64,000 nucleotides of DNA from Escherichia coli (lineage in GTDB: Bacteria > Pseudomonadota > Gammaproteobacteria > Enterobacterales > Enterobacteriaceae): NCBI RefSeq assembly GCF_003018115.1, contig NZ_CP027457.1. One strand, 5' to 3'. Within the stretch, counting starts at the first letter, position 1. Every line of letters starts with the position of its first letter. The position numbers were made by a program, and so were the translations under genes. Of this stretch, positions 547 to 29,438 are shown one piece after another. The notes under the pieces were generated by a model. That model searched no databases. It was not told the DNA's origin and saw only the letters and a program-made list of their open reading frames with translations.

Positions 547-1119
547 ATGAATATGATGACCGTGCCGTTTCACGGCGATTCTCTTTATGTGGTTAACCAT
601 AACGGCGAACCATACGTTCCCATGAAACCTGTCGTTGAGGGAATGGGTATGACCTGGCAGTCTCAACACCGCAAATTGATGGAGAGATTTAAGACCTGCA
701 TCATCGAAATGATGATTCAGCTCCCCGGTGATACTCAGCGTCGTCTGGTTATCTGTCTTGCTTTACGTAAACTTGCAGGTTGGCTGCAAACCATCAACCC
801 AAATAAAGTTAAACCTGAAATCCGCGACAGAGTCATTCAGTATCAGGAAGAGTGCGACGATGTTCTCTATGAATACTGGACGAAGGGTTTTGTCGTTAAT
901 CCTCGTCAAATGAGCGTGATGGAAGAACTCAATCAGGCTTGCGCTGACATGCAACGGGATAAAAACATTGTCAGTGTGTTTGCTACCGGGCTGAATGAGT
1001 GGAAACAGGTTAAAGCTGCGCATGTATCAAAAATCCGCACATTGATAAACGAAGCGAATCTGCTGATTGATTTTGTCCTAGCTGATACAGGCAAAGGGAA
1101 AATAACAAAGGCGGATTGA
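547..1119 (+). CDS. Phage antirepressor-like regulatory protein (accessory gene between endolysin and spanins)
   Basis: 190-aa ORF; N-terminal region resembles phage antirepressor N-terminal domains; family assignment from recall only. Confidence 0.5.
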   Translation: MNMMTVPFHGDSLYVVNHNGEPYVPMKPVVEGMGMTWQSQHRKLMERFKTCIIEMMIQLPGDTQRRLVICLALRKLAGWLQTINPNKVKPEIRDRVIQYQEECDDVLYEYWTKGFVVNPRQMSVMEELNQACADMQRDKNIVSVFATGLNEWKQVKAAHVSKIRTLINEANLLIDFVLADTGKGKITKAD

Positions 1120-1765: not shown

Positions 1766-1910
1766 GTACGCAGTAAACGCGCTTCACACGCGCGACTTAT
1801 GAACACAGAACCTTTCAGGATGACCCTTGAGGATGCCGGTTTGGTGATCGGTGCCTTTCTGTGGGCCGGAATCCTGTGTGACAAGGTTCATCACTAAAAG
1901 GTGTGCACTG

Positions 1911-2453
1911 ATGAATTATCCAACTATCGTTAACGGCATCGATTTTCGAGATCTGATTTTTGTGGCAAACAACGATCCGGTTACAGATTCTTTTATGGTG
2001 GCAAAAGCATTTGGAAAGCTGCCGAAGAACGTAGTTCGTGACATTGAACGAACCATAGAAGCTTGCCCTCCTGGGTTTGATACAAAGCTCAACTTTGAGC
2101 TTTGCTATAAAAACAATGAGTTACAGAATGGTAAGCCGCAAAAATTCTACCGTCTCCGCAAGGATGGGTTGATGCTTTTGGTTATGTCCTACACCAAAAA
2201 AGAAGCAATGCGTATCAAAATTGCTTACATCAACGCATTTAACTGGATGTACGCCATGCTTCAGGTTGGTCATCGTCAATTTGAAGAAGAGAGAAATGCC
2301 GTAATGCTGGAGTACATGAAAGAGAAGGATGTTGCCAGCATGTCAGGTCGCCTGCTAAATCGCTGGGGCAAAATTAAGAAGCCACAGTTGCTGGCTAGAA
2401 TTGAACGCCTTGAACAGCACGGGCAAACCGTAATCCCCGGACTCATCAATTAA
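1911..2453 (+). CDS. Phage regulatory protein, Rha-like
   Basis: Internal Met of track ORF 1851..2453; N-terminal region resembles Rha-family phage regulatory proteins (recall). Confidence 0.55.
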   Translation: MNYPTIVNGIDFRDLIFVANNDPVTDSFMVAKAFGKLPKNVVRDIERTIEACPPGFDTKLNFELCYKNNELQNGKPQKFYRLRKDGLMLLVMSYTKKEAMRIKIAYINAFNWMYAMLQVGHRQFEEERNAVMLEYMKEKDVASMSGRLLNRWGKIKKPQLLARIERLEQHGQTVIPGLIN

Positions 2454-2934
2454 CGGCAGTACCGCGAAACAACCCAAGCCAGTAAGTGGGGAAATAACAC
2501 TGGCAGCCACTGAAAGATGAACCTCCAGCCTTATGGCAAAAAAGATTCTTTGTGGTGGCGGACTGATGGAAAGACATCGGTTATTGCAGAGGCCATTCAA
2601 TGAGTGGTCTCGACAATGGCTTATACCCTACACGGGATAACTTAATTGATATCCTTTTTAACGGATAAAGGCATTTCAGCCTGACATAGCCATGCGCCGT
2701 ATCGTCGCCGTATTCCTGCATTAACAGAGACCGCAGCCCGACAGGGAGACTCCTCTGCGAGAGTGTGCGGGGATAATCAAAAACGATACACACCGGGGTT
2801 TACCGCGTTAACGGAGCGCGGCGTTGTCCCCTCATGGTCGCTGGTCCGGTGCGATGGTGGAAGAAACTGGATTTTGTTGCAACTGATAACCATTATCATT
2901 TTACGGGTCCTTTCCGGCGATCCAGGCCGTTACG

Positions 2935-2946
2935 GGGCGGCGACCT
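2935..2946 (+). other. cosN cohesive-end sequence GGGCGGCGACCT
   Basis: Exact lambda 12-nt cohesive-end sequence read about 175 bp upstream of Nu1 start. Confidence 0.75.
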
Positions 2947-3121
2947 CGCGGGTTTTCGCTATTTATGAAAATTTTCCGGGGAAAATCATGTCGGTACTTC
3001 TCGAACATAACTATTTGTTTTTTCTAATATCGAATCCGTAAAGGTCCGACATGAAAACGCCTGAAAAAGTCATTTTCGGGCACTTTCATGTCGGACCCTG
3101 TATTTGTTGTGAGACTGTTTC

Positions 3122-3641
3122 ATGAAGGTTAATAAAAAGAAACTTGCCGAAATTTTCAACGTGGATCCGCGAACGATTGAACGCTGGCAGTCTCAGGGGC
3201 TCCCTTGCGTCTCCGGAGGTGGTAAGGGCGTTGAATCTGTATTTGATACCGCCACGGCAATTCAGTGGTATGCGCAGAGGGAAGCTGATATCGAAAATGA
3301 AAAACTCCGTAAAGAGGTTGAGGATTACAGGGCTGCCAGCGAGGCAGATCTCCAGCCTGGGACTATTGAGTACGAACGCCATCGACTTACGCGTGCGCAG
3401 GCTGACGCCCAGGAGCTGAAGAATGCCAGAGACTCCGCAGAAGTGGTGGAAACCGCATTCTGTACTTTCGTGCTGTCACGGATCGCAGGTGAAATTGCCA
3501 GTATTCTTGACGGGATCCCTCTCTCAGTACAGCGGCGTTTTCCGGAACTGGAAAACCGACATGTTGATTTCCTGAAACGGGATATTATCAAAGCCATGAA
3601 CAAAGCAGCCGCGCTGGATGAACTGATACCGGGGTTGCTGA

Positions 3642-3667
<26 letters not shown>
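3122..3667 (+). CDS. Nu1: Terminase small subunit
   Basis: 181-aa product near-identical by recall to lambda Nu1. Confidence 0.95.
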
Positions 3668-7348
<3,681 letters not shown>

Positions 7349-25665: not shown

Positions 25666-25830
25666 TTTTATACTATTTGTTGTTTTTTCAGCGATCAGTT
25701 CAAAGGACGCTGAAAAAAAACATTCTCCAAAATTAAATTATAACTATTTGATTTTATGGATAGAGGCATGCTTTTTACGCAAAAGTAAAAAGCATGCCAA
25801 ATTTGCTATTAACTCTTTGAATATTCAGCA

Positions 25831-29293: not shown

Positions 29294-29438
29294 TTGCCCG
29301 ATGCGTATGTGGACTGCCAATTACCGGGATGAAACCGTTATATTGACACTGGTCCACATACTTATCGTGCCTACAGGCGTTCAGTGCATGTAGGCACGAT
29401 AAGGCGCAATCAGCGCCACATCCGGCTTAAATCCAAAC

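What the first reader, a model, noticed from the sequence alone, without database searches (positions are those of the whole stretch)
3043..3097. 14-bp inverted repeat in the cosB region between cosN and Nu1
Between cosN and the Nu1 start there is an inverted repeat, ggtccgacatgaaa ... tttcatgtcggacc, with about 27 nt between the arms. Lambda cosB is organised as small-subunit (R) sites around an IHF site; this symmetric element may be the equivalent site for this phage's Nu1-like protein or a packaging-related structure.
Basis: partly seen in the sequence, partly recalled or inferred. Interest (0 to 1): 0.4.

Follow-up and report, generated by a model that had tools for sequence, protein, structure and literature searches.

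The report
Phage terminase-binding sites R2 and R1
The inverted repeat is real, but it is a well-known element: its two arms are two of the three docking sites (R2 and R1 of cosB) that a phage-21-type small terminase subunit uses to recognise its own DNA for packaging.

Summary
GGTCCGACATGAAA (3043-3056) and TTTCATGTCGGACC (3084-3097) are perfectly complementary with exactly 27 nt between them, against 0.025 such repeats expected per shuffled window.

The arms coincide base for base with the R2 and R1 boxes annotated in phage 21 cosB. Measured from the cohesive end at 2935, R3 is bp 50-65, I1 bp 74-86, R2 bp 107-122 and R1 bp 150-165. The IHF site I1 (3008-3020) lies between R3 and R2, not between the arms.

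The adjacent Nu1 gene carries the phage-21 recognition helix, RTIERWQS. In about 80 related loci the helix type and the R-box type are perfectly linked. In a lineage with a different cosN and diverged cosB, the three R boxes differ at 1 of 48 positions against 28 of 91 elsewhere (p=2e-5).

The element is already known and of low interest.

Two small extras:
- The 27-bp spacer is inverted relative to phage 21 (24/27 matches inverted, 17/27 direct), and both orientations are common in nature.
- Nu1 is a natural chimera of phage 21 (N-terminus) and lambda (C-terminus).

The parts
2904..2915 (+). cosQ / 'R4' box (CGGGTCCTTTCC), the packaging-termination subsite
   Evidence: Mapped from the M81255 annotation (136-147, 'R4 ... 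recognition for terminal cos cleavage; putative') through alignment A1. The sequence was read.
2935..2946 (+). cosN cohesive-end sequence GGGCGGCGACCT (bp 1-12 of the virion left end)
   Evidence: Identical to bases 1-12 of phage 21 OL657228, which are annotated as the cos nicking subsite.
2964..2978 (+). I2 segment between cosN and cosB
   Evidence: Mapped from M81255 196-210, 'IHF I2 site'. I2 is described as a static bend needed for packaging in lambda (PMC4856287).
2984..2999 (+).
   Evidence: Same coordinates as R3 of phage 21 (OL657228 50-65), with 15/16 identity. Bp 56 and 59 are G and G as in phage 21; lambda has T and C.
3008..3020 (-). I1, the IHF site between R3 and R2 (AAACAAATAGTTA on the minus strand; bp 74-86)
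   Evidence: One mismatch to WATCAANNNNTTR. Same coordinates as the I1 annotated in OL657228 (74-86) and overlapping M81255 I1.
3041..3056 (-). R2 box (AAGGTCCGACATGAAA; bp 107-122), which is the left arm of the reported inverted repeat, inverted relative to R3 and R1
   Evidence: 16/16 identical to phage 21 R2, which is annotated 'in opposite orientation to R3 and R1'.
3057..3083 (.). 27-bp spacer with its own imperfect dyad (GCCTGAAAA / TTTTCGGGC), inverted relative to phage 21
   Evidence: dyad. (17/27 matches direct, 24/27 inverted against phage 21). (P=5e-5 for the direct mismatches at the flanking divergence rate). (both orientations common; length 27 in 79 of 80 loci).
3084..3099 (+). 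R1 box (TTTCATGTCGGACCCT; bp 150-165), which is the right arm of the reported inverted repeat
   Evidence: Same coordinates as R1 of phage 21 (OL657228 150-166), with 14/16 identity. The distal flank varies among relatives (GGACC / GGCCC / GGATC / GGGCC).
3122..3667 (+). Nu1 / small terminase subunit gene. Codons 1 to about 66 encode a phage-21-type winged helix-turn-helix domain (recognition helix RTIERWQS, with E20 and S24). The rest is lambda-type.
   Evidence: Pfam Phage_Nu1, E=4e-91. PDB 1j9i (lambda gpNu1 DNA-binding domain) E=1e-23 and 6hn7 E=4e-42. Protein alignment. DNA crossover at about 3300-3350.
3642..5567 (+). gpA / large terminase subunit, lambda-type, the enzyme that the cosB-bound small subunit anchors at cosN
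   Evidence: Pfam GpA_ATPase and GpA_nuclease. DNA identity to lambda of 80-100% per 60-column bin, mostly 93-100%.

Best explanation
The two arms are R2 (inverted) and R1 (direct) of a phage-21-specificity cosB. This is the packaging-recognition site that lies between the nicking site cosN and the small-terminase gene of a lambda-like prophage. A third box, R3, lies 43 bp upstream of R2, with the IHF site I1 in between.

Inferred mechanism, taken from the lambda/21 literature:
- IHF bends the DNA at I1 so that the oppositely oriented R3 and R2 boxes face each other.
- The tight dimer of winged helix-turn-helix domains of the small subunit (Nu1/gp1) then docks on R3 and R2.
- R1 adds an accessory binding site.
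- The bound small subunit positions the large subunit gpA to nick cosN 50 bp away, and stays on this DNA end to start packaging.

The inverted repeat exists because R2 is inverted relative to R1. Its sequence (core CATGTCGG) is dictated by the recognition helix of the adjacent Nu1 gene.

Shown here: the position, sequence identity, conservation and helix/box linkage. Inferred from published work on lambda and phage 21: binding, bending and the role in packaging.
For: 1. The arms map exactly onto the R2 and R1 features of phage 21 (M81255, OL657228), and there are no indels from cosN to R1. R3 is bp 50-65, I1 bp 74-86, R2 bp 107-122 and R1 bp 150-165.

2. Three of the four CATGTCGG 8-mers in the 64-kb window fall in this 113-bp stretch, in the R3>, R2<, R1> arrangement.

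3. An IHF consensus with one mismatch lies between R3 and R2.

4. Nu1 has the phage-21 recognition helix, with residues E20 and S24. R3 has G56 and G59. These are the positions reported to determine 21 versus lambda specificity (PMC4669245 Fig. 2 legend).

5. Linkage is perfect in the 80 IMG/VR loci plus reference phages. Every 21-type helix sits next to CATGTCGG boxes and every lambda-type helix next to CGTTTCC boxes. PhiR5_1 (RTIDRWQT) and SerU-LTIIb (RTITGWQS) each have their own box type in all three boxes.

6. Purifying selection acts on the boxes. In the L169 lineage, where 7 of 12 bases at the cosN position differ, the R boxes differ at 1/48 positions and the rest of cosB at 28/91 (Fisher p=2e-5).

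7. R2 and R1 change together at 7 of 14 arm positions between specificity types. R3, which is not part of any hairpin, changes the same way.

8. [quoted passage not shown]
Against: - There are no binding or packaging data for this prophage.
- The R boxes of phage 21 are marked 'putative' in M81255. According to the papers read here, box boundaries rest mostly on sequence conservation.
- R1 is non-essential in lambda, so the right arm may contribute little.
- The extra complementarity inside the spacer (9 further pairs) is not explained by two independent protein sites. This complementarity is also seen in lambda and PhiR5_1.
Confidence: 0.9

Rival explanations
1. The 55-bp quasi-palindrome (3043-3097) acts as a nucleic-acid structure in its own right. 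It could be a long hairpin in the late mRNA just upstream of the Nu1 start codon (a terminator or attenuator, a stability element or an RNase III-type substrate), or a cruciform in supercoiled DNA.
For: The region folds strongly: -23.6 kcal/mol as DNA (z=-8.3) and -36.4 kcal/mol as RNA (z=-8.7). The plus-strand RNA hairpin is equally stable in phage 21 despite the inverted spacer (-35.5 kcal/mol). Spacer complementarity is partly shared with lambda and PhiR5_1, while the loops differ (86% of cells paired in the spacer helix). The consensus scan flags 3059-3081 as terminator-like.
Against: - The arm pairing follows automatically from two inverted copies of a protein site. R3 shows the same substitutions without any pairing partner.
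- The spacer helix gives weak evidence. Only 2 pairs change on both sides, one pair is broken in 7 of 19 sequences and another in 13 of 19, and many 'pairs' are G-T.
- In phi80 and mEp237 the spacer has no dyad concentric with R2/R1.
- One terminator-like site was found against 1.3 expected in shuffles.
- No Rfam family reaches its threshold; there are only sub-threshold miRNA-precursor-like hairpin hits.
- Template switching at the hairpin could extend a palindrome without selection (inference).
Confidence: 0.06
2. The R2/R1 dyad is itself the functional unit. A second small-subunit dimer, or the octameric ring, bridges R2 and R1, helped by the symmetric A-tract/T-tract spacer. The symmetry and the 27-bp spacing would then be selected directly.
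For: The spacer length is 27 bp in 79 of 80 loci found through the arms, and it is the same in lambda, since alignment A3 has no gaps between the boxes. The A/T tracts at spacer columns 27-29 and 37-39 are invariant across three specificity types. Both spacer orientations occur in nature, as expected if only symmetric properties matter.
Against: [quoted passage not shown] No IHF site or other known bending site lies between R2 and R1. N15 and the PICIs package with R3 alone. The loci were retrieved with a pattern that required both arms, which biases the spacing estimate.
Confidence: 0.12
3. The repeat is an operator for a dimeric transcription regulator that controls Nu1 and the head genes.
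For: Dyad symmetry just upstream of a gene start is typical of operators.
Against: No sigma-70-like promoter was found in 2500-3700. From general knowledge of lambda, the head genes are read from the late promoter through cos. The element maps onto annotated terminase sites and co-varies with the terminase recognition helix.
Confidence: 0.01
4. The palindrome arose by chance.
For: None beyond the fact that short palindromes do occur.
Against: Expected 0.025 per shuffled window. The arms are conserved in more than 100 viral contigs and in three lineages with diverged flanks.
Confidence: 0.005

Closest known systems
cosB of phage 21 (R3-I1-R2-R1; GenBank M81255 and OL657228)
   Same: Same boxes at the same distances from the cohesive end. 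R2 is 16/16 identical, R3 15/16 and R1 14/16. The I1 position is the same, and the recognition helix in the small subunit is identical.
   Different: The 27-bp R2-R1 spacer is in the opposite orientation. There is a 1-bp deletion between R1 and the ATG. The C-terminal two-thirds of Nu1 and all of gpA are lambda-type rather than 21-type.
cosB of phage lambda
   Same: Same architecture and register. R2 and R1 also form an inverted repeat with the same spacing, because alignment A3 needs no gaps between the boxes. The IHF site lies between R3 and R2, and the spacer dyad is similar (GCTGAAA/TTTTTGGC) (PMC9026076).
   Different: The box core is CGTTTCC instead of CATGTCGG (bp 56 and 59 are T and C instead of G and G). 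The recognition helix is RTIQNWQE instead of RTIERWQS. The two specificities are mutually exclusive by more than 1000-fold according to PMC4669245.
Laboratory lambda-21 hybrids (for example lambda 21hy51) with a chimeric small subunit
   Same: cosB-21 plus the 21-type DNA-binding N-terminus of the small subunit, joined to the lambda-type C-terminus and lambda gpA (PMC9026076).
   Different: This one is a natural prophage variant found in many E. coli-derived viral contigs and in the isolated phage IdasGreatGrand. Its crossover is at about codons 60-75.
phi80 cos 'IR1' (JX871397 repeat_region 109-118 / 156-165)
   Same: An annotated inverted repeat at the R2/R1 position upstream of the small terminase gene.
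   Different: Lambda-type boxes, a 37-bp interval between the annotated 10-bp arms, and no concentric spacer dyad.
Simple cosB of N15 and of PICIs
   Same: Same family of small subunit, and an R3 box at the same place.
   Different: They lack I1, R2 and R1, so they have no inverted repeat upstream of the gene. N15 has only a distal inverted copy, rR2, inside the gene.

Membership tests
Complex cosB of lambda-like cos phages (R3-I1-R2-R1) | Located directly downstream of cosN and upstream of the small terminase gene | tested here: met
   cosN is at 2935-2946, the boxes span 2984-3099 and the Nu1 ATG is at 3122.
Complex cosB of lambda-like cos phages (R3-I1-R2-R1) | Three related R boxes of about 16 bp, with R2 inverted relative to R3 and R1 | tested here: met
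   CATGTCGG occurs at 2987(+), 3046(-) and 3087(+). The boxes were aligned to the phage 21 annotation.
Complex cosB of lambda-like cos phages (R3-I1-R2-R1) | [quoted passage not shown] | tested here: met
   AAACAAATAGTTA at 3008-3020(-) has one mismatch to WATCAANNNNTTR, at the annotated I1 position. This is a consensus match only; binding was not tested.
Complex cosB of lambda-like cos phages (R3-I1-R2-R1) | [quoted passage not shown] | tested here: met
   Pfam PF07471, E=4e-91. PDB 1j9i and 6hn7 match residues 1-68 and 1-98.
Complex cosB of lambda-like cos phages (R3-I1-R2-R1) | The small subunit binds the R boxes, and the boxes are required for cos cleavage and packaging | not testable with these tools
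   This needs EMSA or footprinting and helper-packaging assays. It is supported indirectly by helix/box linkage and by box-specific conservation.
Phage-21 packaging specificity (as opposed to lambda) | R3 bp 56 and 59 and TerS residues 20 and 24 are of the 21 type | tested here: met
   The window has G56 and G59, and E20 and S24, as in phage 21. Lambda has T56 and C59, and Q20 and E24. The positions are named in PMC4669245.
Phage-21 packaging specificity (as opposed to lambda) | Packaged by 21-specific but not by lambda-specific terminase | not testable with these tools
   This needs a genetic helper-packaging assay.
Intrinsic (rho-independent) terminator | G+C-rich stem-loop followed by a U run, found more often than chance | tested here: inconclusive
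   One consensus match (3059-3081) against 1.3 expected in shuffles. The tail ACTTTCATGT is a poor U run.
Any curated RNA family (Rfam 15) | Score at or above the family's gathering threshold | tested here: not met
   The best hits are miRNA-precursor models at 28-29 bits against thresholds of 90-95, which are generic hairpin matches.

The most novel reading that the evidence does not exclude
The R2-spacer-R1 quasi-palindrome may be more than two protein sites. It has flipped its 27-bp core at least once between lineages, and both isomers are common. It also keeps a concentric spacer dyad and invariant A/T tracts across lambda, 21 and PhiR5_1 specificities. This would fit a symmetric, orientation-independent function, such as a bend or cruciform that lets a second small-subunit dimer bridge R2 and R1, or a 25-bp RNA hairpin in the late transcript 25 nt upstream of the Nu1 start that affects Nu1 expression.
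Probability: 0.12. Interest if true: 0.4.

Novelty: already known. Interest (0 to 1): 0.1.

Why it matters
It matters little beyond correct annotation. The repeat marks the packaging-recognition site of a phage-21-specificity prophage. It therefore tells which helper terminase could package this element or any cosmid or island carrying the same cos.

The two side observations are modest additions to the picture of how packaging-specificity modules evolve and are exchanged among lambda-like phages:
- A natural chimera of the 21-type DNA-binding domain with the lambda-type gpA-binding domain of the small subunit.
- An inversion of the spacer bounded by the R2/R1 repeat.

Tried and rejected
- **Terminator and promoter scan of 2500-3700.** No promoter was found, and the one terminator-like hit is no more than chance.
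- **Rfam at a permissive threshold.** It returned only sub-threshold generic hairpin hits.
- **Covariation test of the spacer helix.** The result is inconclusive. The arms co-vary strongly, but that is expected for repeated protein sites. The spacer has only 2 pairs with double changes and several broken pairs.
- **Using the inversion to argue against an RNA role.** I expected one orientation to lose the plus-strand hairpin. Both keep it (-36.4 and -35.5 kcal/mol), so I dropped the argument.
- **Window against phage 21 alone as a test of selection on arms versus spacer.** I rejected this once the spacer proved to be inverted, because 3/27 mismatches in the inverted orientation is no different from the flanks. 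I used the more diverged L169 lineage instead.
- **Literature.** A search for 'cosB' plus 'inversion' returned only unrelated papers such as CoSb materials. Sippy et al. 2015 (PMC5006951) is not held. Two paper-reading runs failed because the search terms were too short.
- **The fourth CATGTCGG inside Nu1 (3556-3563) as an N15-like rR2.** I judged it a coincidence, because lambda has the same bases there and phage 21 does not.

Full report
**Observation.** The sequence at 3043-3056 (GGTCCGACATGAAA) is the exact reverse complement of 3084-3097 (TTTCATGTCGGACC), with 27 nt between them. In 200 dinucleotide-preserving shuffles of the 64-kb window, a perfect inverted repeat of at least 14 bp with a spacer of at most 60 nt appears 0.025 times on average, so chance is excluded. 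The complementarity continues imperfectly through the spacer. This gives 25-nt arms (3043-3067 / 3073-3097) that are 88% complementary around a 5-nt loop, with a folding z-score of about -8 as DNA or RNA. The core 8-mer CATGTCGG occurs four times in the window. Three of these lie within 113 bp here: 2987(+), 3046(-) and 3087(+).

**What it is.** The region is a phage-21-type cos. It is 87% identical to phage 21 (M81255, X02501, OL657228) and 97% identical to the isolated phage IdasGreatGrand. The phage 21 records annotate R4/cosQ, cosN, I2, R3, I1, R2, R1 and I0. An ungapped alignment from cosN to R1 transfers these annotations to the window:
- cosQ: 2904-2915
- Cohesive end GGGCGGCGACCT: 2935-2946
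- R3: 2984-2999
- I1: 3008-3020
- R2: 3041-3056
- R1: 3084-3099
- Nu1 ATG: 3122

Counted from the cohesive end, R3 is bp 50-65, I1 bp 74-86, R2 bp 107-122 and R1 bp 150-165. These are exactly the coordinates annotated in OL657228. The left arm of the reported repeat is therefore R2, which OL657228 annotates as 'in opposite orientation to R3 and R1', and the right arm is R1. The IHF consensus (one mismatch) lies between R3 and R2, and there is none between the arms.

**Link to the protein.** The ORF at 3122-3667 is a Nu1-family small terminase subunit (Pfam PF07471, E=4e-91). Its N-terminus matches the solved lambda gpNu1 DNA-binding domain (1j9i and 6hn7). Residues 1 to about 66 are phage-21-like, including the recognition helix RTIERWQS with E20 and S24. 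Residues from about 70 to 181 are nearly identical to lambda. At the DNA level the switch from 21-like to lambda-like lies at about 3300-3350, and gpA downstream is lambda-type. At R3 bp 56 and 59 the window has G and G like phage 21, whereas lambda has T and C. According to Feiss et al. 2015 (PMC4669245), those base pairs and TerS residues 20 and 24 are the ones involved in discriminating between lambda and 21.

**Conservation and co-variation.** In 80 IMG/VR loci retrieved through the protein, plus reference phages, every 21-type helix is next to CATGTCGG boxes and every lambda-type helix is next to CGTTTCC boxes. Two further helix variants have their own box cores in all three boxes: PhiR5_1 (RTIDRWQT) and SerU-LTIIb (RTITGWQS). 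A third 21-specificity lineage (for example L169) differs from the window at 7 of 12 bases at the cosN position and at 28 of 91 positions of non-box cosB, but at only 1 of 48 box positions (Fisher p=2e-5). On an alignment of 19 distinct R2-R1 segments, 7 of the 14 arm pairs change on both sides between specificity types. Because R3 shows the same changes without a pairing partner, this reflects co-evolution with the protein, not base pairing.

**Mechanism (inferred from the literature).** Complex cosB sites of lambda, 21, phi80 and Gifsy-1 are ordered R3-I1-R2-R1, with R2 opposite to R3 and R1. [quoted passage not shown] R1 is accessory. Bound TerS then anchors TerL for accurate nicking of cosN and remains on the cosB end to start packaging (PMC4669245, PMC9026076, PMC4856287). 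The R2/R1 inverted repeat is thus a by-product of box orientation. Lambda has the same feature, with 16 bp of R2 and R1 identical and the same spacing. The phi80 GenBank record even annotates it as 'IR1'.

**What the R-site model does not explain.** The spacer has its own dyad (GCCTGAAAA / TTTTCGGGC), concentric with the arms. Similar dyads occur in lambda (GCTGAAA/TTTTTGGC) and PhiR5_1, while the loops differ. The formal count is weak. In the spacer helix, 86% of cells are paired, but only 2 pairs change on both sides and two pairs are broken in 7 and 13 of the 19 sequences. In phi80 and mEp237 the spacer dyad is not concentric. The terminator scan is at chance level and Rfam gives nothing above threshold. 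An RNA or cruciform role is not excluded, because the plus-strand RNA hairpin is about -36 kcal/mol in both the window and phage 21. A neutral origin by hairpin-templated strand switching is at least as likely, though that is inference.

**Side finding: an inverted spacer.** The window's 27-bp spacer matches the phage 21 spacer at 17/27 positions as aligned, but at 24/27 when reverse-complemented. At the flanking divergence of 8.7%, ten mismatches in 27 have P=5e-5, whereas three are as expected. The flanks outside the arms are collinear, so the end-points lie within the R2/R1 repeat. This is the signature of an inversion mediated by the inverted repeat. The contigs retrieved with both arms have these properties (one search found 106; searches list and analyse 80):
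- The spacer is 27 bp in 79 of 80 listed loci.
- About 45 loci have the window orientation, with either a lambda-type or a 21-type Nu1 C-terminus.
- About 31 loci have the phage 21 orientation.

Both isomers occur in phages isolated as viable viruses (phage 21 and IdasGreatGrand). Spacer orientation therefore appears functionally neutral.

**Verdict.** The element is the known R2 and R1 of cosB-21, so its novelty is nil and its interest is low. The natural 21/lambda chimeric small subunit and the spacer inversion are minor curiosities.

Noticed in passing
window 3057-3083 (compare L001/M81255 289-315): The 27-bp spacer between R2 and R1 is inverted relative to phage 21 (24/27 matches reverse-complemented, 17/27 direct) while the flanks are collinear. 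Both orientations are common among viral contigs. This looks like an inversion mediated by the R2/R1 inverted repeat.
   Followed up: yes
window 3122-3667, crossover at about 3300-3350: Nu1 is a natural chimera. [quoted passage not shown] The C-terminal two-thirds and gpA are lambda-type, like the laboratory lambda-21 hybrids. The same chimera is present in about 30 IMG/VR contigs at 98-100% identity and, at least over the N-terminal 70 residues compared (98.6% identity), in phage IdasGreatGrand.
   Followed up: yes
window 3556-3563 (minus strand): A fourth CATGTCGG core, extending to CATGTCGGT as in R3, lies inverted inside the lambda-derived part of Nu1. Lambda has the same bases and phage 21 does not, so it is probably a coincidence, although it recalls the accessory rR2 site inside the N15 small-terminase gene.
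   Followed up: partly
window 2763-3041 (+), 92 aa: This ORF spans cosQ, cosN and R3. The equivalent is annotated 'hypothetical protein' in phage IdasGreatGrand. It has no Pfam match and would be cut in two by cos cleavage, so it is probably a spurious gene call.
   Followed up: partly
L015, L023, L043, L066 and others; L097/L162/L169/L170: Related loci carry different sequences at the cohesive-end position (GGGCGGAAGGCG instead of GGGCGGCGACCT, and a more divergent one in the L169 group). These are combined with either lambda-type or 21-type cosB, so cosN and cosB variants appear to assort independently.
   Followed up: partly
window 547-1119 and 1851-2453 (+): Two anti-repressor/Rha-family genes (P22_AR_N; Phage_pRha plus ORF11CD3) sit between the lysis genes and cos, a position that is empty in lambda.
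   Followed up: partly
window 25741-25798: A perfect 14-bp hairpin (GGCATGCTTTTTAC-gcaaaa-GTAAAAAGCATGCC) lies just downstream of an exact IHF consensus (AATCAAATAGTTA, minus strand). It is near where prophage tail-fibre DNA gives way to host potB-potA-pepT. It could be a terminator or part of the attachment-site region.
   Followed up: no
window 29361-29403, 41224-41261, 44215-44250, 46031-46111: Four other perfect inverted repeats of at least 14 bp occur in the window, in the part beyond about 26 kb that matches the E. coli chromosome. They were not examined.
   Followed up: no
whole window, especially about 39-46 kb: Matches to the IHF consensus with at most one mismatch are more frequent than in shuffles (76 against 59 +/- 6.6; none of 100 shuffles reach 76). 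Many cluster at 39-46 kb, which suggests an A+T-rich segment there.
   Followed up: no
window about 23.2-34 kb: Host context: the prophage abuts potB, potA, pepT, roxA, phoQ, phoP and purB, at about 98% identity to E. coli chromosomes. potC appears to be displaced, so the prophage probably sits at the potB/potC locus.
   Followed up: partly
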